A stretch of DNA of 35,457 bases from Patescibacteria group bacterium (GTDB taxonomy: Bacteria > Patescibacteriota > Minisyncoccia > UBA6257 > UBA11618), in NCBI GenBank assembly GCA_003539915.1, contig DPNX01000002.1:1-35457 (forward strand), read 5' to 3'. Shown piece by piece: positions 1,500 through 34,670 of this stretch (position 1 is the stretch's first letter; the number at the start of each line of letters is the position of its first letter). Under the pieces are notes generated by a model. It searched no databases, was not told the DNA's origin, and was given only the letters and a program-made list of their open reading frames with translations. A program made the translations under genes and the position numbers.

Positions 1500-1505
1500 T
1501 ATAAT
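1500..1505 (+). promoter_or_regulatory. -10 box TATAAT, 6 nt before the ATG at 1512 (leaderless-type promoter of the T4SS-like operon)
   Basis: The hexamer is an exact TATAAT, followed by the 6-nt spacer tattac and then ATG. There is no Shine-Dalgarno and no convincing -35. Confidence 0.5.
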
Positions 1506-1511
1506 TATTAC

Positions 1512-2294
1512 ATGAGATCCGTCCGTAAATTCGGTTTGTTTTTGCTTATGGGCCTGTTTGCTTTGGTTGGATTAGTATTCTTTGGTAATTCATTAGAGAC
1601 TCAGACCCCTCAAGTACTGTCTCCAAAAAAAGTGGCTGTGAAGCCAGGCGCTTCAAACAACTTAAATGGAGAGATTGTTATTAATAATCTTCAGGCCGAG
1701 CCTATTATGGATGAGACCACTAAACGCCTAGGGGATCAGATTGCCCAACACATCAAGAGCTTGAATAACGACGGCTTGGTAAGTATTGATGATAAAAAAT
1801 ATGCTAAAGCTCTTAACCCAGAGAATATAGCTAACTCAATCATTAGTGAGGAGCTGGAAAAAATTAATAATATTGATCTTGGTTTCAATGATATTAAATT
1901 AGCAAAAATTAATATTGATTATCGAAATGATAAAAAAATACTGGCTGATTATTTCACCTCTTTCCAAAAAGTAATAAATAAGAACTTTGCTACACAGAAG
2001 ATAGATTGGGAAGAGTTTAATAAGAATAATTTTGATGAGATTATTTCTGCTTATGATAAAGCTATAGCCGAATTTTATAAATTAAAAGTTCCTGCCTTAG
2101 CTCTTAATATACACAAACAACAAATCTCTCTAATGATTCAACAAAAAATAGTCATGACTAAGTTGAAAGATGTTGATAGCAATCCTTTAGAGGCTTTAGC
2201 AGCTTTAAAATACAACCCCTCAATAGACGCAGGGTTTAAGGAGGTGACTAGTAAAGTTCTAAATCTATTAAAGATTAATCAGATAAGTATTTAA
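1512..2294 (+). CDS. Hypothetical bitopic membrane protein (N-terminal TM anchor plus ~230-aa external K/N/I-rich domain); first gene of the T4SS-like operon
   Basis: Hydrophobic segment FGLFLLMGLFALVGLVFFG lies near the N-terminus. The stop overlaps the next start (TAATG at 2294). I recognise no motif; the topology resembles VirB8-type proteins, which is a guess. Confidence 0.6.
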   Translation: MRSVRKFGLFLLMGLFALVGLVFFGNSLETQTPQVLSPKKVAVKPGASNNLNGEIVINNLQAEPIMDETTKRLGDQIAQHIKSLNNDGLVSIDDKKYAKALNPENIANSIISEELEKINNIDLGFNDIKLAKINIDYRNDKKILADYFTSFQKVINKNFATQKIDWEEFNKNNFDEIISAYDKAIAEFYKLKVPALALNIHKQQISLMIQQKIVMTKLKDVDSNPLEALAALKYNPSIDAGFKEVTSKVLNLLKINQISI

Positions 2295-3688
2295 TGAATA
2301 TTAGAAATAAAATTTTAGTTGGAATTCTTGGACTCAGTCTGATTTTGATACCTGTTCAGAGAGCTCAAGCTCTTTTTGGAGTTGGCGATATTGTTTTTGA
2401 AACTAATCCAGCTCTAATTTCTAATGCTGTAGGTGAGACTTTCCTTAGAGATGTTCTTAAGGTGGCAGTTAGTTCTCTTAAGAGAAGGTTATTATCAATG
2501 GTTACTGATCAGATAGTTAACTGGGTTGAAGGAGGGGGTAAGCCTCTATTTGTTACTGACTGGAAAGGCTTCTTATCTGATGCGGCTAATATTGCAGCAG
2601 GTGACTTTGCGTTAGAGCTAGGATTAGAAGAGCTCTGCTCTCCTTTCGGCCTCCAAGTTCAGTTAAGTATTCTTACCCCGCCAAGATTTACTGATTACGT
2701 TTCTTGCACACTAGATGATATCGTTGGTAATATTGAAAACTTTTATGAGGACTTCCGTAACGGTGGTTGGTTTGCCTACTCAGAAATGTGGCTACCTCAA
2801 AACAACTATTATGGTGCTGTCTTTATGGCTATGAATGAAAGAGATGTTCGAATTGCTGAAGAAGCTCAAGCTAGCATTCTAGAAGCTGTTTCTGGTAATG
2901 GTTTCTTGGGCACTAGGAAGTGTGATCCTTCTGGTAGGTTCTGTACTATTACCACTCCAGGAGCTCAAGTTGGTGCTTTAGTTGCAAAAGCTGTTGGCTC
3001 TGACATTGACTACTTGATTGAAGCTGACGATCTAGCTGTTTATGTGGGAGCGATAGCGGACGCCCTGATTAACAGGTTGGTCCGATCTGGTGCTGAAGGA
3101 TTAATTAGCTTAACTACTCCTGACAAACCATCTAATGGTTACTTTAGCGGCTCTGGTCCATGTTCTGGATTAAGAGGTGGTGACTTAACCAACTGCTTAT
3201 CAATAATTAAAGCTAGTGAAAAGACTTACGAGGATAATAAAAAATTATTCCTCACTCAAATTGATGCCACTCTACTACCAAGGCAAACTGGTGGAACAAT
3301 ATTAGCTTCCTTAGTAGAAGGTCAGTCTATATTAGTTCGAACGATAACTAACCTGAGAGATTGTCAGGCTGTCAAAAACTTACCAGAAACTATCTCTACA
3401 GAAACTAATCTTCAAAATGAGCAAGATTCTCTAAACCAATTAAATGGAGAGCTTTTGGCTAATAGGAGAATAACCGAGGCCTTGGAGAGTGCTAAGCTTA
3501 ATATTCAAAACCCTAGCTATCCAGACACACCAACTATCGCTTACCACTACAACAATATTGTTGGTTTATTAGATGAGGATGCAGCCCAATCATTCCAAAC
3601 CACCAAAGAAGCTAACAAAGAACAGCTGCAAAATGAAATTACTGGTAAGATATCAAATGCTCAACAGCAATTAGAAGCTTGTGAATAA
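2294..3688 (+). CDS. Hypothetical secreted protein with conserved-looking Cys residues and a Q/N-rich C-terminal coiled-coil-like region
   Basis: Signal peptide is ILVGILGLSLILIPVQRAQA followed by LFG. Nine cysteines are spaced along the mature part (ELCSPFG, YVSCTL, RKCDPSGRFCTI, GPCSGLRGGDLTNCL, RDCQAV, LEACE). The tail has a heptad-like Q/N/L/E pattern. Confidence 0.6.
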   Translation: MNIRNKILVGILGLSLILIPVQRAQALFGVGDIVFETNPALISNAVGETFLRDVLKVAVSSLKRRLLSMVTDQIVNWVEGGGKPLFVTDWKGFLSDAANIAAGDFALELGLEELCSPFGLQVQLSILTPPRFTDYVSCTLDDIVGNIENFYEDFRNGGWFAYSEMWLPQNNYYGAVFMAMNERDVRIAEEAQASILEAVSGNGFLGTRKCDPSGRFCTITTPGAQVGALVAKAVGSDIDYLIEADDLAVYVGAIADALINRLVRSGAEGLISLTTPDKPSNGYFSGSGPCSGLRGGDLTNCLSIIKASEKTYEDNKKLFLTQIDATLLPRQTGGTILASLVEGQSILVRTITNLRDCQAVKNLPETISTETNLQNEQDSLNQLNGELLANRRITEALESAKLNIQNPSYPDTPTIAYHYNNIVGLLDEDAAQSFQTTKEANKEQLQNEITGKISNAQQQLEACE

Positions 3689-3690
3689 TT

Positions 3691-5553: not shown

Positions 5554-5571
5554 TATTAAAATTAATAAACC

Positions 5572-6360
5572 ATGGTCACAATAACATTACAAAACGCTTT
5601 CGCCTCATTATCCGATAAAACCAGGGACTGGCTTACTTCCGAAGAGATAGTGAATAAGATAACCTCTCTTAATGATGGGTTAGGATTAAAATCTGATCGA
5701 CGTCGAATAATATCTAAATTAATTCTTCGAGTAGCTGTCCAGGATTTAGATCCTCGAGACTTTGCTAATGAGCTAGGATCTCAATTAAAAATCAATTATG
5801 AGGCAGCAAAAGAAATAACTCAAAAAGTTCATGCTGATTGCTTGCAACCAATCGAAGCAGAATTAAAGAAAATTAATGTTGATGTTCATGAGATGATTGA
5901 ATACTCTACAGCTCCACCTGAACAACTATCAGCCTATCCTGACAAGCCAGCGCCGGTAATGGAATATTCTAAGCCTGCTAAGCTAGGTTCCAAACCTCTT
6001 AAAGTTGAGGCTACTAGTAAGCTGTCAACCACAGCTCCTGATAACCTGCCTTTAGCAAAACAAAAAATGAAACCAGTTTCCCCTGCCCAACCTTTTGTAT
6101 TACACAAAGAAACGGGTGATATTAAACCAGTAGAAGAGGGGGGTAAGACTTCTTTCAAATACAAAGAGTCTGTTAGAGAAAGAGCTGTTAAGGAACCTCC
6201 CGTTAAAGTTAAAATAGAAAGTCCTCAGAGTGGTAATAACTTAGAGTTTCAGAGAATAGTACATTATAGTAACTTCTTTACCCCTTTTAACACTCCTCAA
6301 ACACCCCCAACCAAGGGAGAGGTTAAAGTTAAAGTACCAGATTCTAAATGGTTTAGTTAA
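5572..6360 (+). CDS. Hypothetical soluble protein: ~110-aa helical N-domain plus Pro/Lys-rich low-complexity tail
   Basis: The ORF has no TM segment or signal peptide. The tail PDKPAPVMEYSKPAKLGSKPLKV...PPVKVKIESP looks disordered. It is co-oriented and 18 nt from the upstream gene. Confidence 0.55.
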   Translation: MVTITLQNAFASLSDKTRDWLTSEEIVNKITSLNDGLGLKSDRRRIISKLILRVAVQDLDPRDFANELGSQLKINYEAAKEITQKVHADCLQPIEAELKKINVDVHEMIEYSTAPPEQLSAYPDKPAPVMEYSKPAKLGSKPLKVEATSKLSTTAPDNLPLAKQKMKPVSPAQPFVLHKETGDIKPVEEGGKTSFKYKESVRERAVKEPPVKVKIESPQSGNNLEFQRIVHYSNFFTPFNTPQTPPTKGEVKVKVPDSKWFS

Positions 6361-6361
6361 T

Positions 6362-6832: not shown

Positions 6833-6834
6833 GT

Positions 6835-6840
6835 TATAAT
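6835..6840 (+). promoter_or_regulatory. Internal -10 box TATAAT, 6 nt before the ATG at 6847
   Basis: An exact TATAAT sits in the 14-nt PrgI/VirB4 spacer. It has the same TATAAT-N6-ATG geometry as at 1512 and 33321. Confidence 0.4.
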
Positions 6841-6846
6841 AAAGCG

Positions 6847-7518
6847 ATGCCAAAACAAAAATCCCTAGCAACACAAGAAATTATTGATATTGATCGCATT
6901 GAAGATGATGTGATTGTTTTGAAAGGTGGTAGTTTTAGAAAAATATTATTAGTTTCAGGAATTAACTTTGATCTTAAATCTGAAGAAGAGAAGAACTTGA
7001 TCATCTTCAGTTACCAGGAGTTTTTAAACTCTCTAAGCTTTTCTATTCAAGAGATAATTCATTCTCGAAAGATTAATATTGAGGGTTATTTGAGTCATTT
7101 AAAAAATCTCCATCAAAAAGAACCTACTAGCTTGTTAAAAAATTTAATTACTGACTATAAAGATTTTGTTAAAGAGTTTGTAGAAAGAAATCCTATTATG
7201 TCTAAGACTTTTTTTATTGTAGTGCCTTATGACCCTATTAATATTCCTAAGATAGGTAAAAGAGTAACTAGAGGTTTGTTTGGATTATTTAAAAAGAAGA
7301 AAGGAGTGGTTGAAGAAAAAACTGAAGATGGTCAGTTTTTAGAAAATAAGCGGCAGCTGGATTTGAGAGTGGATCAAGTAACAGCAGGACTAAATAGGGT
7401 TGGCTTGAGAGCTGTTCCTTTATCAGAAGATGAGGCTATTGAATTATTTTATAATTTTTATAATCCAGCATTAGTAGAAAAGAAAGGTGTTATTAAAAGA
7501 GATAAAAATGAAGAATGA
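6847..7518 (+). CDS. VirB4/TraE-type ATPase, N-terminal domain encoded as a separate ORF
   Basis: TQEIIDIDRIEDDVIVLKGGSFRKILLVSGINFDLKSEEEKNLIIFSYQEFLNSL matches the conserved opening of Gram-positive-type VirB4 proteins (recalled pattern, not a search). The ORF ends at TGA 7516-7518, inside the next ORF. Confidence 0.7.
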   Translation: MPKQKSLATQEIIDIDRIEDDVIVLKGGSFRKILLVSGINFDLKSEEEKNLIIFSYQEFLNSLSFSIQEIIHSRKINIEGYLSHLKNLHQKEPTSLLKNLITDYKDFVKEFVERNPIMSKTFFIVVPYDPINIPKIGKRVTRGLFGLFKKKKGVVEEKTEDGQFLENKRQLDLRVDQVTAGLNRVGLRAVPLSEDEAIELFYNFYNPALVEKKGVIKRDKNEE

Positions 7519-14151: not shown

Positions 14152-14286
14152 TTAAACAGTAATGTTTTTTCTACCCTTTTGACGACGGCTTTTTAACACT
14201 CGTCGACCACCCGGGGAGGCGCTTCTTTTTAAGAATCCGTGGACTCTTTTTCTCTTTCTTTTTTTAGGTTGATATGTTGTTGACAT
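14152..14286 (-). CDS. rpmH: 50S ribosomal protein L34 (44 aa; below the ORF-track size cutoff)
   Basis: Hand translation of the minus strand gives [44 protein letters not shown]. This is the L34 signature, and the gene abuts rnpA. Confidence 0.95.
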
Positions 14287-14313
14287 AATAATTATTTATA
14301 GCAGAAAATATAG

Positions 14314-14333: not shown

Positions 14334-14366
14334 TGTTATTAATTTAGGTCTTATTTCATTGAAATT

Positions 14367-14394
14367 TTGACGAGATGCGAAGAGTGATTAAAAT
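14367..14394 (+). promoter_or_regulatory. dnaA promoter: TTGACG-16 nt-TAAAAT, with the -10 ending 6 nt before the ATG
   Basis: The -35 is at 14367-14372 and the -10 at 14389-14394, with the ATG at 14401. There is no Shine-Dalgarno in between. Confidence 0.55.
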
Positions 14395-14400
14395 GATGAT

Positions 14401-15762
14401 ATGGATCTAAATCAGTTTTGGGAAAAAGCCTTAGGAGATATTGAGCTTCAAGTTTCAAAACCTAACTTTGTTACTTGGTTTAAGAATAGTAGGGTAATTG
14501 ATAAACAAGACGGTTTAGTGGTTATTGGTCTACCAAATAACTTTGCTAAAGAATGGGTGGAAAAGAAATACGACAAAGTCATCTTAGGTTCTTTAAGATC
14601 GTTAGATGAGAAGGTTAAAAAGGTGGAGTTTATCATCCACTCCCAAAACAAGCCTCTTGTGCCAAGTAATCTTTCTGAAAAAGCTGTTGCTGATAACGAA
14701 ACTCAATTAAGTTTTACTGAATTTAAGATTGACCCCGAAACAAACCTTAATCCCCAGTACACTCTTCAGTCATACGCTGTTGGATCAACAAACGAATTAG
14801 CTTATGCCGCGATAACTGCCATCCTCGCTTCGATAGGTAACAAATACAACCCTCTCTTTATCTACGGGGGAGTGGGTGTTGGTAAAACTCATTTAATACA
14901 GGCGGCTGGCAATGAAATAAAAAGGAAGTCTAAGGGAAATGTTAAGGTTAGGTATGTTTCCTCAGAAAAATTCACTAATGATGTTATTTGGGCGATGAGA
15001 AACAAACGAATGGATACTATGAAGTCTAAGTATCGAAATGTAGATGTTTTAATTATTGATGATATTCAATTCATTGGCGGTAAAGAAAAGACTGAGGAAG
15101 AGTTCTTTCACACCTTCAATGCTTTGTTCGAACAAAATAAACAGATCATCCTATCCTCTGATAGGTCTCCTAAGTTCATTCCCGTCCTTGAGGAGCGCTT
15201 GAGCTCACGTTTTGAGGGTGGAATGACGGTTGATATATCATCACCTGATTTCGAGCTTAAGGTGGCTGTTTTACGCAATAAGTTAGAAGAAAAGGGTATT
15301 GAGTTAAGTAATGAGGTTATAAACGCTATCGCTAGTAAAACTCAAAAGAATTTAAGAGAGTTAGAAGGTATATTAAATAAGGTTTTATTTTATAAAGAGG
15401 TTAAAAAAGAAGAGGTTAGTGCTAAAACCCTTGATCAAATAATCGATAATATAGTTCAAAAACCAGCTAAAACAACTAGTCCTGATCAAATAATGAAGAT
15501 AGTCTCTAATTTTTTTGAGATATCTATTAACGATATAATCAGCCGCTCTAGAAAAAAGGAGATTGTTGAGCCTAGACAGGTGTCTATCTACCTCTTGAGA
15601 GATATATTAGGCTTATCTTACCCTTATATTGCTGATAAATTAGGAAAAAGAGATCATACTACTGCTATTTATGCTTATAATAAAATAAAGAAGGAGATCT
15701 TAAAAAATCAGATGTTAAACCAAAAAATAATCATGATTAGAGATATTATAGATAAGGGATAA
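14401..15762 (+). CDS. dnaA: Chromosomal replication initiator DnaA
   Basis: AAA+ Walker A is GGVGVGKTHL and Walker B is LIIDDIQF. The C-terminal DNA-binding helix is DHTTAIYAY. Confidence 0.97.
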   Translation: MDLNQFWEKALGDIELQVSKPNFVTWFKNSRVIDKQDGLVVIGLPNNFAKEWVEKKYDKVILGSLRSLDEKVKKVEFIIHSQNKPLVPSNLSEKAVADNETQLSFTEFKIDPETNLNPQYTLQSYAVGSTNELAYAAITAILASIGNKYNPLFIYGGVGVGKTHLIQAAGNEIKRKSKGNVKVRYVSSEKFTNDVIWAMRNKRMDTMKSKYRNVDVLIIDDIQFIGGKEKTEEEFFHTFNALFEQNKQIILSSDRSPKFIPVLEERLSSRFEGGMTVDISSPDFELKVAVLRNKLEEKGIELSNEVINAIASKTQKNLRELEGILNKVLFYKEVKKEEVSAKTLDQIIDNIVQKPAKTTSPDQIMKIVSNFFEISINDIISRSRKKEIVEPRQVSIYLLRDILGLSYPYIADKLGKRDHTTAIYAYNKIKKEILKNQMLNQKIIMIRDIIDKG

Positions 15763-16026
15763 CTTATGGATAAGCTGAGGATTACTGGTGAGTGAGTTCT
15801 GGATAAAAAGTTAGTAAAAACAACTCTACTCAACAAGGTTAAAAGATATCCTATACTTATTACTCTTCTATCCGAGTTTAATCCACAGGAAGTAAACAGG
15901 TTGTTGCGCAGAAAAAAATATTTTTAATTCGATTATAAAAGGGTTATAATATGTTATTCACAAAAAAGGTCCTACACTACTAACTACTACTACTATTAAT
16001 AATTAATATATAAATATATTAGTAAT
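15763..16026 (+). other. Candidate oriC (dnaA-dnaN spacer): DnaA boxes, CTA/TAG trinucleotide run, AT-rich unwinding element
   Basis: One-mismatch boxes are TATGGATAA (15765-15773, reverse orientation), TCTGGATAA (15798-15806, reverse), TAATCCACA (15879-15887) and TTATTCACA (15954-15962). Seven CTA triplets lie at 15972-15995. The stretch 15996-16026 contains only one G/C base. Confidence 0.7.
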
Positions 16027-17133
16027 ATGAAGGTTGTTATCTTAAAAAGTAATTTAAAAGGTGGATTGTCGTCAGTCGAGAGAGCTATAGGAGAGAGTTC
16101 TAATTTACCAGTTCTTAGAAACGTCTTATTAAAGACTAATGGTAATAAGATTAATATTTCAACAACTAATTTAGAACTAGCTATCACTAAAACTGTTTCA
16201 GGAAAGATTATCGAAGAAGGAGGTTTAACGATTCCTTTCAGTACTTTAAATAATATTGTTAACAATACTACTCAAGAGAGAGTTAGTTTAGAAAAGGATG
16301 GAAATAATTTTATTTTCAAGACAGATAATTACGAAGCTAAAATACAAGGACTTAAAGAAGATGAATTTCCAGTTATTCCTAAGATTAAAAGTGAAAACTG
16401 TATAGAGTTCAATCCGGTTATATTAAGAAAAGCTGTTAATAAAGTTATTAGTGCTGCTCAGATGTCAGAAATAAGACCAGAGATTAGTGGGTTATTACTT
16501 GATTACCAAGTAACTCAAATAAAATTAGTAGCAACGGATAGTTTTAGGCTCGCAGAAAAGAATATTAGCGCCAATCAATTCAAGTCTGATATAAACCACA
16601 GCTTTAAGGTAATCGTTCCGCTAAAGACCGTTCAGGAGGTCTTAAGGGTATTTAGCGATGATGAACCAATCAAACTTTTTATAGACGACAATCAAATTCT
16701 TTTTAAGAACAATAATTTACAGATCATTTCTAGATTGATTGATGGTGAGTATCCGGATTATGAACAGATTATCCCTAAAAGTATCGAAACTGAATTAAGT
16801 GTTAATAAGGAGCATTTTATAAACGCTGTTCGCTTAGTTAGTACTTTTAGTGGAAAAAATAATGATGTTAATCTAGCGCTTAAAAACAATAAGGTGATGG
16901 AAGTTTATTTAGCTAATCAGATGTTGGGAGAAAATAATTACATGATCCCCACCAAAACTGACGGAAAAGATTTTGAAAATGTTTCTTTTAACTGGCGTTA
17001 TCTAATTGATGGCTTGAAAGTTATAGATTCTGAAAATCTAATCTTTGGAGTTAATGGTAATAATCGTCCAGCGGTAATTAAGTCAGCTGATGACACTTCT
17101 CATTTTTATATCTTAATGCCAATCAAGGCTTAG
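16027..17133 (+). CDS. dnaN: DNA polymerase III beta sliding clamp
   Basis: The protein is 368 aa and contains ATDSFRLA and LIDGEYPDYEQIIP motifs. It follows dnaA. Confidence 0.95.
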   Translation: MKVVILKSNLKGGLSSVERAIGESSNLPVLRNVLLKTNGNKINISTTNLELAITKTVSGKIIEEGGLTIPFSTLNNIVNNTTQERVSLEKDGNNFIFKTDNYEAKIQGLKEDEFPVIPKIKSENCIEFNPVILRKAVNKVISAAQMSEIRPEISGLLLDYQVTQIKLVATDSFRLAEKNISANQFKSDINHSFKVIVPLKTVQEVLRVFSDDEPIKLFIDDNQILFKNNNLQIISRLIDGEYPDYEQIIPKSIETELSVNKEHFINAVRLVSTFSGKNNDVNLALKNNKVMEVYLANQMLGENNYMIPTKTDGKDFENVSFNWRYLIDGLKVIDSENLIFGVNGNNRPAVIKSADDTSHFYILMPIKA

Positions 17134-17134
17134 A

Positions 17135-19474: not shown

Positions 19475-19478
19475 CCTC

Positions 19479-19503
19479 TAAAAATCCCGTCATAAGACGG
19501 GAT
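19479..19503 (-). terminator. Stem-loop with U-run (minus strand) only 5 nt upstream of the PBP start; terminator/attenuator or 5' stabiliser
   Basis: ATCCCGTC (19484-19491) pairs with GACGGGAT (19496-19503), a perfect 8-bp stem with a 4-nt loop. The minus strand continues UUUU AGAGG AUG. Confidence 0.45.
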
Positions 19504-19525
19504 AATAATCTTTGTATGATTTCGA

Positions 19526-19681
19526 TTAATAATCTTCATTACCTTCTTCTAGTGTATCATCATCTACCTCATCTTCATCCATTAAATCATCATCACTCAT
19601 TTCATCCATTTCATCATAGACACCATCCTCAATGTCTTCAGTGTGATTACTTAGTGAGAAGGAAACTTTATATTCAGTCAT
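19526..19681 (-). CDS. Hypothetical 51-aa hyper-acidic small protein (not in the ORF track)
   Basis: Hand translation gives MTEYKVSFSLSNHTEDIEDGVYDEMDEMSDDDLMDEDEVDDDTLEEGNEDY, with 23 D/E and 1 K. It is on the same strand as flanking ruvC and the PBP gene, and ends just before the 19484-19503 hairpin. Confidence 0.45.
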   Translation of the reverse strand: MTEYKVSFSLSNHTEDIEDGVYDEMDEMSDDDLMDEDEVDDDTLEEGNEDY

Positions 19682-20802: not shown

Positions 20803-20824
20803 GGTGGTCCGAAAAAAAAGATAA

Positions 20825-21046
20825 CTACTCTTTTCGGAAGTTGGATTTAGAATCGACATCAAGTCGATACTTGTGTTTACCGATCTGAGTTGCGGAAGCG
20901 AAGTTAGACTCACTTCGCTTAACACTGCTGTGGAAGGCACTACCAACACAATGATTGTTAGCACCCACCTGGAAACCAGCACCAACAGCACAACCACTCA
21001 TCATGATCGTCAACGCGACCAAACCCAAATAAAATACCCTCTTCAT
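20825..21046 (-). CDS. Small lipoprotein (73 aa), Gly-rich
   Basis: The signal peptide with lipobox-like sequence is LVALTIMMSGC. AAGGAG (21052-21057) lies 5 nt upstream of the ATG, the only strong SD at an operon head in the window. A dedicated terminator follows. Confidence 0.7.
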   Translation of the reverse strand: MKRVFYLGLVALTIMMSGCAVGAGFQVGANNHCVGSAFHSSVKRSESNFASATQIGKHKYRLDVDSKSNFRKE

Positions 21047-21178
21047 ATTAACTCCTTTTCAAAAGAGGTTTGAGGAACTGGGCATATTATTACACATAAA
21101 TATAATTTAGTCAATACCCGATAAACACCTAAAGTCAACCACTTTATTTTTTGTTTGAAAACGGCTAGGATAATAGCG

Positions 21179-22843
21179 ATGGCTTCAGCAATTGAGGAAC
21201 AATTAGTTAAGATAAAAAGAGATTCAGAGGAAAGAGATGTTAAAAGAAAAGCTGATGAACTTGGGTTAGATTATTTAGATCTTTCAACTAAAGTAATTAG
21301 TAATACAGCTCTAGAAACTTTATCAAAAGACGTTGCTGAAGCGGCTCAGGTAATACCAGTTGAGCTAAAAGGTCAGGATTTAGCTTTAGCGGTCATTGAT
21401 CTAAAAAATAATAAGACTCAAGAGGTTGTGAGTGATTTAAAAAGCAAGGGTTTCAATCTTGCTTTTTATTTATCTTCAAAAAGCTCTATAAAAAAAGCCC
21501 TAAAAAGTTATGATAATTTACCTAAAAAACGAGGTGAGATAACAGGCGAGGTTGATGTAAAAGAAAGTAATTTAGAAGAGGTAGCTAAAAAATTAACGAG
21601 CTTAAAAATAATAACAGAAGAGATAGAGAGTTTTAATACTAATCAACAACCAATCGGTAGTGTTTTAGAAATGATTTTAGCTGGAGCTATTACTACTAAA
21701 TCATCTGACGTTCACTTTGAACCAAGTATAGACAAGATTAAGATTCGTTACAGAATAGATGGTGTTTTAAATACTATTGTTAATGATTTTTCTACTTCTT
21801 TATATAAAAGCTTATTATCTAGAATTAAATTATTAACTGGTTTAAAAATTGATGTTAGTGGTAAATCTCAAGATGGTAGGTTTTCTATAGCCTTTGGAAA
21901 TAAAGATGTTGAGTTAAGAGTTTCTATCCTGCCATCAGAGTATGGTGAGACGGTGGTAATGAGGGTCTTAGACCCAGATTCTATTAACATATCTTTAGAA
22001 GACTTAGGATTGCGTAAGGATGATCTAGATATTGTAACAATTGAAATTCAAGAACCAAACGGAATGATTTTAAATACTGGACCTACTGGGTCGGGAAAAA
22101 CCACCACTCTTTATAGTTTCTTAAAACAACGTCATTCATCTGAGATTAAAATAATCACAATTGAGGATCCTATTGAATATAATATTGAAGGAATTGAACA
22201 AACCCAAGTTGATGAAGAGAGGGGTTACACTTTTTCTAACGGCTTGAGTGCGGTAATGAGACAGGATCCGGATGTTATTTTAATTGGTGAGATTAGAGAT
22301 GCTGAGACGGCAAATACCGCTGTTCAATCTGCCTTAACAGGACACCTGGTTTTTTCTACGGTTCACGCTAATGAGGCGGCTGGATCTATTCCTAGATTAT
22401 TAGATCTAAATATTAAACCAACTAGTATTGGACCAGCTTTAAATATGATAATGGCTCAACGATTGGTTCGTAAGTTGTGTGAGAATTGTAAAAAACAAAC
22501 AGAGGTTGATGATGAGATGAGGGTAAAGATCGCTCACTTATTAGCAATATTACCAGAAAGAGTAGATAAGGTTAGTTATCAAACACCAACTCTATTTGAA
22601 GTGGTTGGTTGTGAAAAATGTAATCAAACAGGTTATAAAGGTCGGGTAGGTATTTTTGAGCTGTTACAAGTTAAACAGGAAATAGAATCACTAATAGAAA
22701 AAGAGGCTAGTGAAACAGAGTTACAAGAGTTTGCATTGAAACAAGGAATGGTAACAATGCAACAAGATGGATTATTGAAAGTATTAACCGGAATAACAAC
22801 CTTAGAAGAGATTAAGGCTGCGACAGGTAGTCTGAACTTTTAA
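21179..22843 (+). CDS. pilB: GspE/PilB-family secretion ATPase (type IV pilus assembly ATPase-like)
   Basis: A T2SSE N-domain is present, Walker A is GPTGSGKTT, the Asp/His boxes include FSTVHAN, and the tetracysteine motif is CENC...CEKC. AGGA (21167-21170) lies 8 nt before the ATG at 21179; the tracked TTG at 21155 is an alternative start. Confidence 0.88.
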   Translation: MASAIEEQLVKIKRDSEERDVKRKADELGLDYLDLSTKVISNTALETLSKDVAEAAQVIPVELKGQDLALAVIDLKNNKTQEVVSDLKSKGFNLAFYLSSKSSIKKALKSYDNLPKKRGEITGEVDVKESNLEEVAKKLTSLKIITEEIESFNTNQQPIGSVLEMILAGAITTKSSDVHFEPSIDKIKIRYRIDGVLNTIVNDFSTSLYKSLLSRIKLLTGLKIDVSGKSQDGRFSIAFGNKDVELRVSILPSEYGETVVMRVLDPDSINISLEDLGLRKDDLDIVTIEIQEPNGMILNTGPTGSGKTTTLYSFLKQRHSSEIKIITIEDPIEYNIEGIEQTQVDEERGYTFSNGLSAVMRQDPDVILIGEIRDAETANTAVQSALTGHLVFSTVHANEAAGSIPRLLDLNIKPTSIGPALNMIMAQRLVRKLCENCKKQTEVDDEMRVKIAHLLAILPERVDKVSYQTPTLFEVVGCEKCNQTGYKGRVGIFELLQVKQEIESLIEKEASETELQEFALKQGMVTMQQDGLLKVLTGITTLEEIKAATGSLNF

Positions 22844-22851
22844 AATAAAAA

Positions 22852-23011
22852 AAATAAAGACCATTGATCTGTGGGCGTTGCCCCCGGAAGGACTAAAAAT
22901 CTTTTATTGGATAAAAGAGTCAGAGTTTAATCGAGGAATAGTCGAGCCGTAGCTTGACTACCCGAAGTATCTAAAATAAACTCCCTGCCCACAGATCAAT
23001 GACCTTTATTT
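22852..23011 (+). ncRNA. Candidate structured RNA or MITE-like element closed by a 25-nt imperfect inverted repeat
   Basis: AAATAAAG-AC-CATTGATCTGTGGGC (22852-22876) pairs with GCCCACAGATCAATG-AC-CTTTATTT (22987-23011). Inner hairpins lie at 22891-22921 and 22939-22960; the latter has a G-U pair that works only on the plus strand. Confidence 0.35.
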
Positions 23012-23055
23012 AACGGCGTTATTCTATCACGAGGAAATGATTTTGTCAAATTTTT

Positions 23056-26601: not shown

Positions 26602-26609
26602 TAAAGACT

Positions 26610-27761: not shown

Positions 27762-27764
27762 TAC

Positions 27765-28613: not shown

Positions 28614-28634
28614 ATATCTAATCGTTCGCATTTT

Positions 28635-28643
28635 TGGTATAAT
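28635..28643 (+). promoter_or_regulatory. Extended -10 promoter TGGTATAAT, 8 nt before the holA ATG
   Basis: A TGnTATAAT match lies at 28635-28643 and the ATG at 28652. There is no Shine-Dalgarno. Confidence 0.5.
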
Positions 28644-28651
28644 AGAAGCCA

Positions 28652-29413
28652 ATGATTATATATCTTCACGGCCCTGATTCGTATCGACGTCAGCAAAAAC
28701 TTAAGGAAATAGTTAGAGAGTATAAGAAGAGACATTCTAGCTTAACAATTGAGCGTTTTTATTTTGATGAAGGAAAAGAGGAGTCTGTTAAATTTACAAA
28801 CTTTGTTAAGGGGCAGTCTTTATTTGGTGGTCATCGTTTAGCAATAACTTCTAACGTGGGAGTTATTAAAGAAAAGAACGTTATTGAATTATTTAAAACC
28901 TTATCAGAGGAAAAAGAGGTGGTAATACTTATCTCAGAAGAAAAGACTCTTAATAAGGACTTCTCCTTTCTTGCTAAAGACCCGGTGATTAACCAAGAAT
29001 TCAAGGACCTTACATCAACCCAAATTCATCTATTTATTAAACAAGAGGCTGTAAAAAGAAAGCTTTCTTTATCGTCGTCTGATATTGGTATGATTGCTGA
29101 AACTTATAGAAATGATAATTGGGGGATTGTAACAGAGTTAGACAAGTTAGCTTTAGGAGGGTCAGTTACCCAATCATTACCACAAGCCAGCCTTTTTCAA
29201 ATGTTATTTAAATTACAAAAGAGATTTCCTCTTAATGTGAGGATGTCTACCCTAGAAAAGTTATTGGTAGATGAAGATTCAGCTAAAATATTTAATTTGT
29301 TAGCATATCAAAAAAACGTCGCAGCTAGAGATGTTTTTGCTAACTACGACGTTTTGGTGAAGTCTGGTAAGTTGGATTATGAATCGGTTTTACTAGACTT
29401 AGCGATTCTTTGA
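28652..29413 (+). CDS. holA: DNA polymerase III delta subunit (HolA)-like, short form
   Basis: The opening MIIYLHGPDSYRRQQKLKEI is typical of small-genome HolA proteins. SLFGGHRLAI and ELDKLAL motifs are present. Confidence 0.65.
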   Translation: MIIYLHGPDSYRRQQKLKEIVREYKKRHSSLTIERFYFDEGKEESVKFTNFVKGQSLFGGHRLAITSNVGVIKEKNVIELFKTLSEEKEVVILISEEKTLNKDFSFLAKDPVINQEFKDLTSTQIHLFIKQEAVKRKLSLSSSDIGMIAETYRNDNWGIVTELDKLALGGSVTQSLPQASLFQMLFKLQKRFPLNVRMSTLEKLLVDEDSAKIFNLLAYQKNVAARDVFANYDVLVKSGKLDYESVLLDLAIL

Positions 29414-29649
29414 GTTAAGCGAGACTTAAGTCTGCTAGCTCTATTCTTATGAATAAGATTTTTCTTAGCAGCTTTATCTAGCTTCTTATAAACACCAGAA
29501 AGCATTTTGGTTGCTTCCTCCGGCTTGCTTTCAGCAGCTTTTTTAAAGTCTCTAACAACTTCTTTAAGAGCCTTTTTCTGTGACAAATTACGCGCACGTC
29601 GATGTTGGCTTTGTCTTAAAGATTTCTTAACTGATTCTGTATTAGGCAT
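29377..29649 (-). CDS. rpsT: 30S ribosomal protein S20
   Basis: The sequence is MPNTESVKKSLRQSQHRRARNLSQKKALK..., a 90-aa basic protein. Confidence 0.92.
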   Translation of the reverse strand: MPNTESVKKSLRQSQHRRARNLSQKKALKEVVRDFKKAAESKPEEATKMLSGVYKKLDKAAKKNLIHKNRASRLKSRLTQRIAKSSKTDS

Positions 29650-29657
29650 ATAGAGAG

Positions 29658-29686
29658 ATGATAGGGAAAAAAATTAAGTTAGTCAA
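29658..29686 (-). promoter_or_regulatory. rpsT promoter TTGACT-17 nt-TATCAT, with the -10 ending 8 nt before the ATG
   Basis: On the minus strand the -35 TTGACT is at 29681-29686 and overlaps the uvrB stop. The -10 TATCAT is at 29658-29663 and the start is at 29649. Confidence 0.55.
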
Positions 29687-31472
29687 CATTAAAATTACTA
29701 ACCATAATAGGTTTATTTAATTCTTGGGGAGTAATGCCGCTTTTTTTATTAAACCTTATCTGAGCCAGACGACGTCTTTTAGTCTCGTTTAAAGTTTGTT
29801 TAATAGAGTTGGTTAGAAGATCAGCATAAAGAATAACTTGGCCTTTAGTGGAGCGAGCTGCTCGACCAGCCATTTGAATAAGGCCTCGATAGTTACGAAG
29901 AAAACCCTCTCTATCAGCGTCTAGGATGGCAACTAGACTTACCTCAGGTAGGTCTAGGCCCTCACGTAACAAGTTAACACCAACTACTACATCTATTTCA
30001 CCGCGACGCAAAGAAGCTAAAACCTCTGGGCGTTTTAAGGTTTTAATTTCTGAATGAAGATATGTTGCTTTAATACCTTGGTCTAAGAGGTACTCGGTTA
30101 AATCCTCAGCCGATCTCTTAGTTAGAGTGAGTGCTAGACAGCGTTCGTTTTTGGATACACGAGCCTTAATTTCTTTTAATAAATCTACTACCTGAGTTTG
30201 AGCTGGTCTAATAGATATTTTAGGATCTAAGATACCAGTAGGTCTTACCATCTGTTCAACAATACAACTACCTTTCTTAGCCTTTTCTAGTTCATAGTCG
30301 CCAGGGGTAGCAGAAACATAAATAGTTTGATCAATTTTTTCTTCAAACTCTTCAAAGCGTAGTGGGCGATTGTCTATAGCAGAAGGTAGGCGGTAGCCGT
30401 AGGCTATTAAAGAATCTTTTCTTTTTGAGTCACCAGCTTGCATAGCTCTTAATTGAGGGATGGTGATGTGAGATTCATCAACTATTAATAGAAAGGGCTT
30501 AGGCATATAATCTAATAGCGTAAGAGCAGGTTCGCCTGGTTTACGAAAATCAAAGTGACGAGAATAGTTTTCAACGCCATTAACGTAGCCTTGTTTCTTT
30601 AACATCTCAATATCAAACAAAGTCTTTTTTTCTAGACGCTCAGCTTCTTCAAGTCTACCGTCTGATTGAAATTTTTTAACTCGTTCTTCCATTTCACTTT
30701 TAATATTTTGCAAAGCAAGATTGAATTGATGTTGAGGAGTTGTCCAGAATTTAGCGGGGTAAATATCTAACTTCTTTTTATTCTTACCATCTATTTTAAT
30801 AGAGGTAATTTTTTTACGATTCATTTCAAGCTCTACTTTTTCATCTGTGACAAGATGAATAATTATTTTGCCAGTTCCTAATCTATTAGTGTTTAAAATA
30901 TATTCACCTGGAACAATTTTATCGCGACTACGAACGTATTGAAGTAGCCCTAGGTGGTGAGATAAATCTTTATTACTAATAACCCCACCAATTCTTAATT
31001 CTAAACGAGCCTTTTTATAATTATCGGGACTACCGATGCCATAAATACAGGAGACAGAAGCAATAACTAGAGAGTCTTTTCTAGTAAATAGATTTTGAAT
31101 AGTAGCGTGACGTAGTTTATCGATCTCTGAATTGATACGGGCGTCTTTTTGAATGTAAGTTTTATCTACTGGTAAATAAGCTTCGGGTTGGTAGTAGTCG
31201 TAATAGGAGACAAAATAGTTAACGGAGTTTTTGGGGAAAAATGATTTGAATTCTTGGTAGAGTTGAGCGGCTAAAATTTTATTAGGAGAAATCACTAGAG
31301 TTGGCATATTTAATTCTTCGATAGCTGAAGCTATGGTAAAGGTTTTACCAGACCCAGTCACACCTAATAGGACCTGGTTTTTGTGGTCCTTTCTAACTCC
31401 TTCGACGAGTTTTTTAATAGCTTGTGGTTGGTCGCCTCCAGGTTTGAAGGGTGATACCAGCTTAAACTTCAT
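29679..31472 (-). CDS. uvrB: Excinuclease ABC subunit B, lacking the C-terminal UVR domain
   Basis: The sequence contains KLVSPFKPGGDQPQAI, Walker A GVTGSGKTF, DESH and QMAGRAARS. I prefer Met14 of the tracked ORF as the start, because a minus-strand TATAAT (31483-31488) lies inside the longer ORF. Confidence 0.92.
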   Translation of the reverse strand: MKFKLVSPFKPGGDQPQAIKKLVEGVRKDHKNQVLLGVTGSGKTFTIASAIEELNMPTLVISPNKILAAQLYQEFKSFFPKNSVNYFVSYYDYYQPEAYLPVDKTYIQKDARINSEIDKLRHATIQNLFTRKDSLVIASVSCIYGIGSPDNYKKARLELRIGGVISNKDLSHHLGLLQYVRSRDKIVPGEYILNTNRLGTGKIIIHLVTDEKVELEMNRKKITSIKIDGKNKKKLDIYPAKFWTTPQHQFNLALQNIKSEMEERVKKFQSDGRLEEAERLEKKTLFDIEMLKKQGYVNGVENYSRHFDFRKPGEPALTLLDYMPKPFLLIVDESHITIPQLRAMQAGDSKRKDSLIAYGYRLPSAIDNRPLRFEEFEEKIDQTIYVSATPGDYELEKAKKGSCIVEQMVRPTGILDPKISIRPAQTQVVDLLKEIKARVSKNERCLALTLTKRSAEDLTEYLLDQGIKATYLHSEIKTLKRPEVLASLRRGEIDVVVGVNLLREGLDLPEVSLVAILDADREGFLRNYRGLIQMAGRAARSTKGQVILYADLLTNSIKQTLNETKRRRLAQIRFNKKSGITPQELNKPIMVSNFNVD

Positions 31473-31552
31473 AAGGACCCATATTATAAAGGAAAAATGG
31501 CTTTTTGTCATCTAGAGTTGTTATCTAAGGCCTCGTTCTATACTATATAGGT

Positions 31553-32128
31553 ATGATTTATCGTTTATCAGGGGAATTAGTGTCTAAAAAGGAGAATTTT
31601 ATAATTATTGATGTTAACAAGGTTAATTACAAAGTATTCGTATCACCCAAAACTCATCAAGCCTTACCAGCAAATGGAGAAGAGTCACAGATCTATACTT
31701 ACTTAAATGTAAAAGAGGATGCCTTAGATTTGTATGGCTTTCTAACTGAGTCTGAACTAGGATTCTTTGAAAAGCTGATTAGTATTAGCGGTGTTGGTCC
31801 TCGCTCAGCTTTAGGGGTGATGGCAGTAGCTCCAGTTGACCAGTTGATAGCAACTATTAATGAAGGTAAGCCGGAGTTGTTGACTCGTGCCTCAGGAATT
31901 GGTAAAAAAACGGCAGATAGAGTGGTTCTAGAATTGAGAGGTAAGGTGGCTGCTATAGGAACGGAAAATGTGGTGAGGGCTATGGAGTCTGATATTGAAT
32001 TAGAGGAGGCTTTGATAAGTTTGGATTATAGCAAGGCTCAAGCTAAGAAGATAACCGCTCAAATTGATCCTAAACTAACAAGATTAGAGGATCGTCTGCG
32101 AGCTGCTCTAAAGAAAATAGAAAAATGA
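31553..32128 (+). CDS. ruvA: Holliday junction DNA helicase subunit RuvA
   Basis: The opening is MIYRLSGEL, and the HhH motifs are ISISGVGPRSAL and ASGIGKKTADRV. The protein is 191 aa. Confidence 0.9.
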   Translation: MIYRLSGELVSKKENFIIIDVNKVNYKVFVSPKTHQALPANGEESQIYTYLNVKEDALDLYGFLTESELGFFEKLISISGVGPRSALGVMAVAPVDQLIATINEGKPELLTRASGIGKKTADRVVLELRGKVAAIGTENVVRAMESDIELEEALISLDYSKAQAKKITAQIDPKLTRLEDRLRAALKKIEK

Positions 32129-33276: not shown

Positions 33277-33308
33277 AGTTATTAAGAGTTAATTTTTGAG
33301 AAATATTA

Positions 33309-33314
33309 TATAAT
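33309..33314 (+). promoter_or_regulatory. -10 box TATAAT, 6 nt before the ATG at 33321
   Basis: An exact TATAAT is followed by tatctc and then ATG. There is no Shine-Dalgarno. Confidence 0.45.
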
Positions 33315-33320
33315 TATCTC

Positions 33321-34670
33321 ATGAAATTAACTTTCAATGGAGGTGTTAAAGCTGTTACTGGTGCAAACTACTTACTAGAGAGCGATCAAACAAAAATATT
33401 AATAGATTGCGGTCTTCATCAAGGGGGGAAGTTTAGTGAGCGACAAAACTGGGACGATTTTCCTTATAGCCCTAAGGATATCAAAGCAGTCTTTATTACT
33501 CACTCGCACATAGATCATATTGGTTTATTACCTAAATTATATAGAGAGGGTTTTAGAGGAACGGTTTATTCCACAACGCCTTGTAAGGAATTCTCAAGAG
33601 TTCTATTAAATGACTCTCAGCATATTTTAGAGATGGAAGCAAAGAGATCAAAGAAACCTATCTTGTATGAAGAAGAGGATATAGTTGGTCTGATGAAACT
33701 TTGGAAAGGAGGTAAATACCACAAGCCTATTACAGTTGATAATTTTACAGTTACTTTTTATAGCGCTGGACATATTCTGGGTTCAAGTATTATTTATATT
33801 GAAGCTGATGGGAAAAGAATTGTTTTCTCTGGAGACTTAGGTAATAGCCCTGCTCCTTTGATTGGTTATAAGGAGGAGTTGCCGGAGACAGATTATTGTT
33901 TAATAGAGTCTACTTATGGTGATCGAATTCACGAAGATATAGCGGAAAGGAAAGATATAATCGAAAATATGATTGAGAACGTGGTTAGATCAGGAGGAAC
34001 TTTAATGATTCCAGCTTTTGCCATGGAAAGAAGTCAGCAGTTACTTTATGTCATTCATGAATTGATGCATGAGGGGCGGGTACCCAAGATACCAGTTTTT
34101 TTAGATAGTCCATTAGCTATTAAGCTAACAGAAATTTATAAGAGGCATCGTAGTTATTTTAGTGAAGATGTCATTGCTCAGATAAAACCAGACGACCCAA
34201 TTTTCAGTTTCCCCGGTTTGAAAAAAACCTTAACAACTATGGAGTCAAAAGCTATTAACGAAGTTGATCCGCCAAAGATTATTATTGCTGGCTCAGGAAT
34301 GATGCATGCTGGCAGAATCTTACATCATTTAAAACGTCACTTACCAGATCCTAATAGTATTCTTTTGATTGTTGGTTTCCAGGCTAAAGGTTCTTTAGGT
34401 CGTCAGCTATTTGACGGAAAAAAGAAAGTGAGGATACATGGTCAAGACGTAGAGGCTCATTGTCGTATCAAAGCTATTGGTGGTTATTCAGCCCATGCTG
34501 ATCAGCCTCAGTTAATGGATTGGTTACGACCGCAGAGAAAAAAATTAAAAAAAGTTTTTGTTGTTCAAGGTGAAGAGAAAGCTAGTGCTGTTCTTAGGGA
34601 TAAGATTAAAGACGAGTTGGTTATTACAGCCAGCATCCCTCAGAAGGGTATTACTTATGATATAATTTAA
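33321..34670 (+). CDS. MBL-fold beta-CASP family nuclease (RNA-metabolising metallo-beta-lactamase type)
   Basis: The HxHxDH motif is HSHIDHIG. A downstream D/H pattern (GDLGN, ESTYGDR, ...GGYSAHAD) is typical of beta-CASP enzymes. Confidence 0.8.
   Translation: MKLTFNGGVKAVTGANYLLESDQTKILIDCGLHQGGKFSERQNWDDFPYSPKDIKAVFITHSHIDHIGLLPKLYREGFRGTVYSTTPCKEFSRVLLNDSQHILEMEAKRSKKPILYEEEDIVGLMKLWKGGKYHKPITVDNFTVTFYSAGHILGSSIIYIEADGKRIVFSGDLGNSPAPLIGYKEELPETDYCLIESTYGDRIHEDIAERKDIIENMIENVVRSGGTLMIPAFAMERSQQLLYVIHELMHEGRVPKIPVFLDSPLAIKLTEIYKRHRSYFSEDVIAQIKPDDPIFSFPGLKKTLTTMESKAINEVDPPKIIIAGSGMMHAGRILHHLKRHLPDPNSILLIVGFQAKGSLGRQLFDGKKKVRIHGQDVEAHCRIKAIGGYSAHADQPQLMDWLRPQRKKLKKVFVVQGEEKASAVLRDKIKDELVITASIPQKGITYDII

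What the first reader, a model, noticed from the sequence alone, without database searches (positions are those of the whole stretch)
1500..33323. Systematic -10 box 6-10 nt upstream of start codons: leaderless mRNAs at almost every operon head
For genes that start a transcription unit, a -10 hexamer sits where a Shine-Dalgarno should be. The plus-strand cases are as follows. TATAAT-N6-ATG occurs at 1512, at 6847 and at 33321. TTGACG-16-TAAAAT-N6-ATG precedes dnaA (14401). TATATT-N6-ATG precedes dnaN (16027). TGGTATAAT-N8-ATG precedes holA (28652). TATACT-N8-ATG precedes ruvA (31553). The minus-strand cases are TTGACT-17-TATCAT-N8-ATG for rpsT (29649), TATAAA-N8-ATG for rpmH (14286) and TATAAT-N10-ATG for uvrB (31472). 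A transcription start about 7 nt after the -10 would leave 0-3 nt of leader. Internal genes are instead coupled by overlapping stop and start codons. Only the small lipoprotein gene (AAGGAG, 21052-21057) and perhaps pilB (AGGA) show an SD at an operon head. Three exact TATAAT-N6-ATG cases among about 45 genes seems far more than chance placement would give, even in AT-rich DNA; this is a rough judgement, not a statistic.
Basis: partly seen in the sequence, partly recalled or inferred. Interest (0 to 1): 0.6.

Follow-up and report, generated by a model that had tools for sequence, protein, structure and literature searches.

The report
Promoters abutting start codons: leaderless genes
In this tiny uncultured Parcubacteria (candidate phyla radiation) genome, many operon-first genes have a promoter -10 box ending 6-8 bases before the ATG, so their mRNAs probably begin at the start codon; this known mechanism fits a lineage whose 16S rRNA has lost its ribosome-docking (anti-Shine-Dalgarno) tail.

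Summary
All ten listed sites are in the sequence as stated. Exact TATAAT-N6-ATG occurs 4 times in the window against 0.68 expected, three times at gene starts.

In the whole 422-kb genome, TATAAT is the most enriched hexamer 5-9 nt before operon-first start codons. These boxes also carry TGn extensions and TTGACA -35 boxes, so they are sigma-70 promoters and not ribosome sites.

The layout is conserved in relatives while the spacers diverge. It holds for dnaA (about 40 of 64 further genomes), rpmH (60 of 78) and rpsT, but not for dnaN or, beyond the genus, holA.

The 16S rRNA of the same-genus relative, on the contig syntenic with this window, ends GAACAAUUAAUUA instead of GAUCACCUCCUUA. Every sampled member of the order lacks the anti-SD, and uL1 is absent. 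Tightly spaced internal genes have no SD and overlap or abut their neighbours.

"Almost every operon head" overstates it: about 8-11 of 19 in the window and 25-45% genome-wide. No transcript 5' ends could be examined.

This is a new member of a known kind (leaderless, GeneMarkS-2 group C-like), not found described for this phylum. A conserved AAGGAG class of about 20 genes remains unexplained.

The parts
1500..1514 (+). TATAAT-N6-ATG before a 260-aa gene with no Pfam match. A terminator-like hairpin with T-run (1452-1476) lies just upstream in the same 56-nt gap.
6835..6849 (+). TATAAT-N6-ATG inside a 14-nt gap, before the VirB4-N-like ORF. The hexamer is identical in the same-genus genome while flanking bases differ.
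14284..14303 (-). rpmH: TGcTATAAA-N8-ATG.
   Evidence: In 60 of 78 related genomes a TANNNT box lies 6-8 nt before the rpmH ATG.
14367..14403 (+). dnaA: TTGACG-16-TAAAAT-N6-ATG.
   Evidence: TTGAC-16/17-TAnAAT-6/7-ATG is conserved through the family and in about 40 of 64 further Paceibacteria, with divergent spacers.
16015..16029 (+). dnaN: TATATT-N6-ATG. Uncertain, because it lies in an AT-rich origin-type region.
   Evidence: No conserved -10 position in 72 relatives.
28635..28654 (+). It has no Pfam match.
   Evidence: Conserved only in the same genus.
29647..29686 (-). rpsT (S20): TTGACT-17-TATCAT-N8-ATG.
   Evidence: Two family relatives keep TTGTCT-17-TATTAT-N7 and TTGTCA-17-TAGTAT-N7.
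31470..31511 (-). uvrB: ATGACA-17-TATAAT-N10-ATG. The expected leader is about 3-4 nt.
   Evidence: A -10 lies about 10 nt upstream in several relatives.
31539..31555 (+). ruvA: TATACT-N8-ATG.
   Evidence: Relatives have TATATT-N7 and TATTAT-N8, while others have no such box.
33309..33323 (+). TATAAT-N6-ATG before a beta-CASP/metallo-beta-lactamase RNase gene.
21166..21181 (+). pilB (T2SSE ATPase): the true start is ATG 21179, preceded by TAGGAT-N7 or the overlapping GATAAT-N4. Ambiguous.
21044..21114 (-). Counter-example: a small lipoprotein gene with AAGGAG 5 nt before the ATG. It has a leadered promoter, TTGACT-17-TGtAATAAT, about 35 nt upstream.

Best explanation
The hexamers are -10 elements of sigma-70-type promoters placed so that RNA polymerase starts at, or 1-4 nt before, the A of the ATG. 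The first gene of many transcription units is therefore made as a leaderless mRNA, and ribosomes recognise its 5'-terminal AUG directly.

Downstream genes are translated by termination-reinitiation across overlapping or abutting stop and start codons. Where the gap between co-directional genes exceeds about 15 nt, a new promoter often abuts the next ATG.

This fits an organism of the uL1-less Parcubacteria/Paceibacteria lineage, whose 16S rRNA 3' tail has lost CCUCC and so cannot dock on Shine-Dalgarno sequences.

Shown here: motif position, promoter character, conservation in relatives, loss of the anti-SD in relatives, and absence of SD at coupled genes. Inferred: the transcription start positions and the way the ribosome initiates.
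For: 1. Position. An unbiased hexamer search 5-9 nt before operon-first starts in G000 plus the same-genus contig puts TATAAT first: 34 observed against 4.5 expected, p = 5e-19. The peak is at spacers 6-7, which places the A of the ATG at the usual +1 position.

2. Promoter character. I compared boxes abutting starts with other intergenic TANNNT hexamers (see also the frequency matrix).
- TG extension: 21% against 5.5% (p = 1.6e-6).
- A -35 box matching at least 5 of 6 bases of TTGACA, 16-18 nt upstream: 21% against 4% (p = 2e-8).

3. Start codon. 59 of 63 genes in this class start with ATG, against 69 of 101 other heads.

4. Gene spacing.
- 20 of 27 genes behind same-strand gaps of 16-39 nt carry the box.
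- SD-like 4-mers occur in 0 of 109 genes behind gaps of 0-39 nt.

5. Conservation with divergent spacers.
- dnaA.
- rpmH: 60 of 78 genomes.
- rpsT and uvrB.
- Across 80 related genomes with dnaA excluded, TANNNT at spacers 6, 7 and 8 numbers 78, 51 and 44 of 717 heads. Background is 26.5 (p = 1e-18), and there is no SD peak.

6. Anti-SD.
- The same-genus genome carries its 16S on the 194-kb contig that is syntenic with this window. It ends ...GCGUAGAACAAUUAAUUA.
- 7 of 7 same-order genomes and 1 same-class genome lack CCUCC.
- 27 of 29 Patescibacteria of other classes keep GGAUCACCUCCUUUCU.
- uL1 is absent in 5 of 5 same-order genomes and present in 3 of 3 outgroups. This matches the anti-SD-less, uL1-less Parcubacteria group of Tsurumaki et al. 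2022 (PMC9297842).

7. Positive control. The same pipeline finds SD motifs before 35-51% of internal genes in some anti-SD-bearing Patescibacteria, against 2-5% here.
Against: - The start site is inferred from promoter geometry alone.
- Gene and start calls are my own crude longest-ORF calls.
- With the loose TANNNT pattern, enrichment in long intergenic regions is modest: 39% against 22-29% at control positions.
- The loose sigma-70 scan finds no overall promoter excess in this AT-rich window.
- dnaN and holA are not conserved, and ruvA only partly. About 10 relatives have the dnaA promoter with a 25-45-nt leader.
- A class of about 20 genes keeps a canonical AAGGAG(G) 5-8 nt before the ATG. 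That is unexpected if no anti-SD exists.
- This genome's own 16S 3' end is not assembled. Its only 16S fragment (contig C19) is 74% identical to the same-genus 16S and looks mis-binned.
Confidence: 0.8

Rival explanations
1. The promoters are real, but transcription starts a few bases upstream, so the mRNAs have very short 5' UTRs of about 3-10 nt and are not strictly leaderless. This applies especially to the N8-N11 cases (uvrB, rpsT, ruvA, rpmH, 28652, 5572, 19681). Initiation would then use a short-leader, SD-independent route.
For: Five of the ten listed sites have spacers of 8-10 nt. Genome-wide there is a shoulder at spacers 8-9: 11 and 11 of 164. Relatives show uvrB boxes 10-17 nt from the ATG.
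Against: The main peak is at spacers 6-7. Discriminators of 6-8 nt are normal for sigma-70 promoters, so N8 is still compatible with a start at the A. This is a matter of degree and not a different mechanism.
Confidence: 0.12
2. The TA-rich hexamer is a translation signal and not a promoter. It could be an A/U-rich non-SD ribosome-binding element, or a new 'SD' that pairs with the altered 16S tail (CAAUUAAUUA, complementary to UAAUUAAUUG).
For: The altered tail is conserved as CA(A/U/C)UUAA across families. TAATTA and ATAATT are also enriched before starts, because TATAAT is often followed by TA.
Against: - The consensus is TAtaaT with TGn and TTGACA partners at promoter spacing.
- The dnaA and rpmH boxes in relatives are TAnAAT with no complementarity to the tail.
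- TAATTA and TTAAT show no peak before internal genes, and the TAATTA peak sits at spacer 4-5, simply as the shifted TATAATTA.
- A ribosome-binding motif should precede internal genes too, which is the criterion for GeneMarkS-2 group B (PMC6028130). It does not.
Confidence: 0.04
3. Chance placement in AT-rich DNA, or mis-set start codons, creates the appearance of a pattern.
For: Intergenic DNA here is very AT-rich and TANNNT is common. The loose promoter scan is not enriched. dnaN is a plausible false positive.
Against: - Shuffle and positional controls reject chance.
- The peak is specific to ATG.
- Conservation across dozens of genomes argues against chance.
- Pfam N-termini support the start codons.
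Confidence: 0.03

Closest known systems
Leaderless-rich bacterial genomes (GeneMarkS-2 'group C': Actinobacteria such as Mycobacterium tuberculosis and Streptomyces, and Deinococcus-Thermus such as D. deserti)
   Same: A Pribnow box lies 6-8 nt before the start codon of operon-first genes. A quarter to a half of transcription units are affected, and ATG/GTG sits at the 5' end (PMC6028130).
   Different: In group C genomes the remaining and internal genes use SD sites and the 16S rRNA keeps its anti-SD. Here internal genes show no SD (2-5%) and the lineage's 16S has lost CCUCC. The genome is also low-GC and about 0.45 Mb. None of the 4 papers holding 'leaderless' with Patescibacteria, candidate phyla radiation or Saccharibacteria that I opened describes leaderless mRNAs in CPR; 3 further hits were judged by title and abstract only.
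Anti-SD-less, uL1-less Parcubacteria subgroup (Tsurumaki et al. 2022, RNA 28:1041, PMC9297842)
   Same: The CCUCCU motif is lost at the 16S 3' end and uL1 is missing, in the same part of Parcubacteria. I reproduced both in this organism's relatives.
   Different: In the passages I read, the paper reports the loss and calls its link to uL1 unclear; none of them says how mRNAs are then selected. The promoter-at-ATG layout plus tight coupling offers an answer.
Bacteroidetes-type SD-independent initiation (GeneMarkS-2 'group B')
   Same: Little or no SD usage.
   Different: Group B genomes keep the anti-SD in the rRNA and show one A-rich motif before all genes, internal ones included. Here the motif is a promoter and is tied to transcription-unit heads.
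Termination-reinitiation coupling at overlapping stop and start codons (ATGA, TAATG)
   Same: The modal same-strand distances are -4, -1 and 0 to +4.
   Different: Here it appears to be the only route for internal genes, with no SD assistance. This is inferred and was not tested.

Membership tests
Bacterial leaderless-mRNA genes (GeneMarkS-2 group C pattern) | A -10 (Pribnow) motif localised about 6-8 nt upstream of start codons of first genes in operons | tested here: met
   TATAAT is the top enriched hexamer (34 against 4.5). The peak is at spacers 6-7.
Bacterial leaderless-mRNA genes (GeneMarkS-2 group C pattern) | The motif is a promoter element, accompanied by -35 and/or extended -10 elements | tested here: met
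   TG extension 21% against 5.5%. A -35 box matching at least 5 of 6 bases in 21% against 4%.
Bacterial leaderless-mRNA genes (GeneMarkS-2 group C pattern) | Mapped transcription start coincides with the first base of the start codon | not testable with these tools
Bacterial leaderless-mRNA genes (GeneMarkS-2 group C pattern) | Internal and leadered genes use SD-type ribosome-binding sites | tested here: not met
   SD-like 4-mers precede 2% (G000) and 5% (G001) of internal genes, and 0 of 109 genes behind gaps of 0-39 nt. Only about 11% of heads have an SD-like motif.
Bacterial leaderless-mRNA genes (GeneMarkS-2 group C pattern) | The arrangement is conserved at orthologous genes in relatives | tested here: met
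   Met for dnaA, rpmH (60 of 78) and rpsT. Not met for dnaN, or for holA beyond the genus.
Anti-SD-less, uL1-less Parcubacteria (Tsurumaki 2022) | The 16S rRNA 3' tail lacks CCUCC | tested here: inconclusive
   This genome's own 16S 3' end is not assembled, and the C19 fragment looks foreign. The feature is met in the same-genus genome on the syntenic contig and in 7 of 7 same-order genomes.
Anti-SD-less, uL1-less Parcubacteria (Tsurumaki 2022) | No uL1 gene | tested here: met
   PF00687 is absent from G000 and four relatives. It is present in 3 of 3 outgroup Patescibacteria and in 14 of 14 control genomes.
Non-SD RBS genomes (GeneMarkS-2 group B, Bacteroidetes type) | The same upstream motif precedes both first and internal genes | tested here: not met
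   The box is rare before tightly coupled genes and frequent once the gap exceeds 15 nt.

The most novel reading that the evidence does not exclude
A class-level Parcubacteria lineage has given up SD/anti-SD pairing altogether, and its genome is organised around that loss. Every gene is either translated from a 5'-terminal AUG or reinitiated within a few bases of the previous stop. Any gap longer than about 15 nt must therefore carry its own promoter abutting the next ATG.

On this reading the AAGGAG motifs kept before about 20 accessory genes are no longer ribosome-docking sites. They would be operators for CsrA, or for a small RNA. These genes include both csrA paralogues, each with a second GGA motif upstream.
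Probability: 0.3. Interest if true: 0.75.

Novelty: new member of a known kind. Interest (0 to 1): 0.5.

Why it matters

It also has a practical side. Gene finders that assume an SD will mis-set starts in these genomes, whereas a -10 box at 6-8 nt is a usable start-site signal.

The spacing rule is a compact example of translation machinery shaping genome architecture: genes are either tightly coupled or carry their own promoter. If it holds, it could be exploited to predict transcription units in thousands of uncultured CPR genomes.

The same signature appears in several anti-SD-bearing Patescibacteria classes. Leaderless initiation may therefore have preceded, and permitted, the loss of the anti-SD.

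Tried and rejected
1. This genome's own anti-SD.
- The only 16S piece (C19, model positions 1-893 by cmscan, 9-873 by the genome search) stops at the contig end.
- It is 74% identical to the same-genus 16S and 82% identical to an anti-SD-bearing genome of another class. It is probably mis-binned, so I did not use it.
- A CTGGAGCACCTCCTTT at the end of contig C36 looked like a 16S 3' end. The contig has no rRNA by Rfam and does not align with 16S tails. I treat it as chance.

3. A co-evolved new SD complementary to the altered tail. TAATTA is enriched only as the shifted TATAATTA and not before internal genes. Rejected.

4. The generic sigma-70 scan of the window is not enriched over shuffles. 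It is too loose for AT-rich DNA. Its top hits do include dnaA, rpsT and uvrB.

5. Rfam and tRNA scans of the window found nothing.

6. Literature. Seven full-text searches, three of them pairing 'leaderless' with Patescibacteria, candidate phyla radiation or Saccharibacteria, gave no hit that I read which describes leaderless mRNAs in CPR. The N. lyticus TM7x TSS paper (PMID 35975994) is not held.

7. For a while I thought relatives' loci were unreadable in Python. The L*.fa files in fact hold many records each.


Full report
**What the window is.** The window is contig C45 of a 422-kb, 53-contig metagenome-assembled genome. It is 94% complete with GC 0.38. DnaA relatives carry the labels Parcubacteria/Paceibacteria (Colwell-, Lipton- and Wolfebacteria), with genomes of 0.5-1.3 Mb. 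A same-genus genome (G001) is collinear with window 4339-25773 at 79-83% DNA identity.

**The observation.**
- Start codons are backed by Pfam profile coordinates: RuvA_N 1-62 to profile 1-61, DnaN 1-118 to profile 1-120, and S20 2-82 to profile 1-82.
- The UvrB N-terminus MKFKLVSPFKPGGDQP fits ATG 31472.
- The DnaA start is conserved.
- In the window, TATAAT-N6-ATG occurs 4 times against 0.68 expected, three times at gene starts.
- TATAAT-N6-10-ATG occurs 13 times against 3.67 expected, and 0 of 100 shuffles reach 13.

I called 424 genes with a simple codon-bias and longest-ORF caller.
- Among 164 operon heads (upstream gene divergent, or gap of at least 40 nt), hexamers within one mismatch of TATAAT number 12, 19 and 7 at spacers 6, 7 and 8. 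Background is about 2.8 per position.
- Without any annotation, TATAAT-Nk-ATG peaks at k = 6-8 (15, 24, 12 against about 7.7). There is no peak before five control triplets.
- An unbiased hexamer search 5-9 nt before heads (G000 plus the 194-kb G001 contig) ranks TATAAT first: 34 against 4.5, p = 5e-19.

**Promoter or ribosome site?** The boxes behave as promoters.
- Boxes abutting starts carry a TG extension in 21%, against 5.5% of other intergenic TANNNT hexamers (p = 1.6e-6).
- They have a -35 box matching at least 5 of 6 bases of TTGACA, 16-18 nt upstream, in 21% against 4% (p = 2e-8).
- The aligned class shows T, T, G at -23 to -21 and T, G at -3 and -2.
- 59 of 63 genes in this class start with ATG.
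- The box tracks transcription-unit structure. It precedes 20 of 27 genes behind same-strand gaps of 16-39 nt, 17 of 39 behind gaps of 40-99 nt, 19 of 49 behind gaps of 100 nt or more, and 27 of 76 divergent heads.
- Tightly coupled genes rarely have it. G001 and 80 further genomes behave alike.

**Conservation in relatives.**
- dnaA: TTGAC-16/17-TAnAAT-6/7-ATG (once GTG) runs through the family and into other families, while the spacer sequence diverges completely. It recurs in about 40 of 64 further Paceibacteria. About 10 have the same promoter with a 25-45-nt leader that has no SD.
- rpmH: 60 of 78 genomes have TANNNT 6-8 nt before the ATG, with the mode at 7.
- rpsT: relatives keep TTGTCT-17-TATTAT-N7 and TTGTCA-17-TAGTAT-N7.
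- uvrB keeps a box about 10 nt upstream. ruvA is partly conserved. holA is conserved only within the genus. dnaN shows no conserved position.
- Pooling 80 genomes with dnaA removed, TANNNT at spacers 6, 7 and 8 numbers 78, 51 and 44 of 717 heads. Background is 26.5 (p = 1e-18), and no SD peak appears.

**The anti-SD.** This genome's own 16S is not usable. The C19 fragment is truncated, only 74% identical to the same-genus gene, and closest to a genome of another class.
- In G001 the 16S lies on the same 194-kb contig as the region syntenic with this window. It ends AAGUCGUAACAAGGCACGUGUAGCGGAAGCUGUGCGUAGAACAAUUAAUUA, where E. coli has GGAUCACCUCCUUA.
- Seven of seven same-order genomes and one same-class genome lack CCUCC. 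Their consensus is G(G/A)A(U/A)CA(A/U/C)UUAA.
- 27 of 29 Patescibacteria of other classes keep GGAUCACCUCCUUUCU.
- uL1 is absent from G000 and four relatives but present in three outgroups.
- bS1 is a short protein of about 400 aa with four domains. bS21 is only a sub-threshold hit.
- This is the anti-SD-less, uL1-less Parcubacteria group of Tsurumaki et al. 2022. In the passages I read, that paper does not address initiation.

**SD usage.**
- SD-like 4-mers precede 2% (G000) and 5% (G001) of internal genes, and 0 of 109 genes behind gaps of 0-39 nt.
- The same pipeline finds them before 35-51% of internal genes in some anti-SD-bearing Patescibacteria, which serves as a positive control.
- Several of those outgroups also show the -10 peak at 6-8 nt: 30 of 62, 19 of 53 and 12 of 43 heads, against 6, 3 and 0 at control positions. 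Leaderless usage therefore seems wider than the anti-SD-less clade.

**Extent.** I count about 19 heads in the window.
- Eight are convincing: 1512, 6847, rpmH, dnaA, 28652, rpsT, ruvA and 33321.
- Three are near-leaderless: uvrB (N10), 5572 (TAAAAT-N9) and the small acidic ORF at 19681 (GATAAT-N11).
- Three are ambiguous: dnaN, pilB and 34675.
- Four have no box: 13173, 19474, 20740 and 23056.
- One, the lipoprotein gene at 21046, has AAGGAG behind a leadered promoter.
- Genome-wide the raw share is 33-44% of heads. The excess over positional controls is 20-26%. My start calls are crude, so the true value probably lies between these.

**Unexplained.** AAGGAG is the second most enriched hexamer before heads: 12 against 0.4.
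- About 20 mostly small, accessory-looking genes have AAGGAG(G) 5-8 nt before the ATG.
- Some lie on the G001 contig that carries the anti-SD-less 16S.
- They include both csrA paralogues. csrA genes in six genera of the family keep AGGAG at that spacing. At least five of the nine distinct genes shown also have a second GGA motif 25-45 nt upstream, which is the classical two-site CsrA operator layout.
- Whether the motif still recruits ribosomes is open.

**Comparison and novelty.** The mechanism is the known leaderless arrangement of GeneMarkS-2 group C.
- It differs in that SD is missing from internal genes and the anti-SD is missing from the lineage's rRNA.
- In seven full-text searches, none of the hits I read describes leaderless mRNAs in CPR/Patescibacteria.
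- Earlier notes of this scan on other Parcubacteria genomes reach the same reading. I treat them as leads, not evidence.
- My verdict is a new member of a known kind. The evidence is solid but indirect, and 5'-end mapping is still needed.

Noticed in passing
window 22846-23049, minus strand: A near-perfect promoter, TTGACA-17-TGnTAGAAT (23049-23021, 11 of 12 matches), points into the 160-nt inverted-repeat element between pilB and ruvB. The minus-strand RNA folds at -66.5 kcal/mol (z = -7.9) and ends in a U-run. It has no Rfam match and is probably a small RNA gene on the minus strand.
   Followed up: partly
G000 contigs C34:4899-5417, C47, C20, C32, C11, C21 and others; window 21044-21057: About 20 genes keep a canonical AAGGAG(G) 5-8 nt before the ATG, although the lineage's 16S has no CCUCC. 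They include two csrA paralogues. csrA genes in six genera keep the motif, and at least five of the nine shown have a second GGA site 25-45 nt upstream, like a CsrA operator.
   Followed up: partly
G000 contig C19:3275-4113: The genome's only 16S fragment is 74% identical to the same-genus 16S and 82% identical to an anti-SD-bearing Patescibacterium of another class. The 4.1-kb contig is probably mis-binned.
   Followed up: partly
G000 whole genome; G001, G002, G006, G018: No uL1 gene (PF00687) in five of five same-order genomes, but present in three outgroup Patescibacteria. bS1 is a four-domain protein of about 400 aa (C35:5494-6186). bS21 is only a sub-threshold match (C52:2893-3048).
   Followed up: yes
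window 21155-21181: The longest pilB ORF starts at TTG 21155, but that codon is TAA in the same-genus genome. The real start is ATG 21179.
   Followed up: yes
window 19474-19510: The 779-aa PBP-like gene starts right after a GC-rich hairpin with U-run (minus strand, 19503-19484) and has no -10 box or spaced SD. It may be read through from the small acidic ORF upstream, or its start may be mis-set.
   Followed up: no
loci L163-L198 (anti-SD-bearing Patescibacteria of other classes): Several outgroup genomes that keep the anti-SD also show a -10 peak 6-8 nt before operon-first starts: 30 of 62, 19 of 53 and 12 of 43 heads. Leaderless genes may therefore be phylum-wide.
   Followed up: partly
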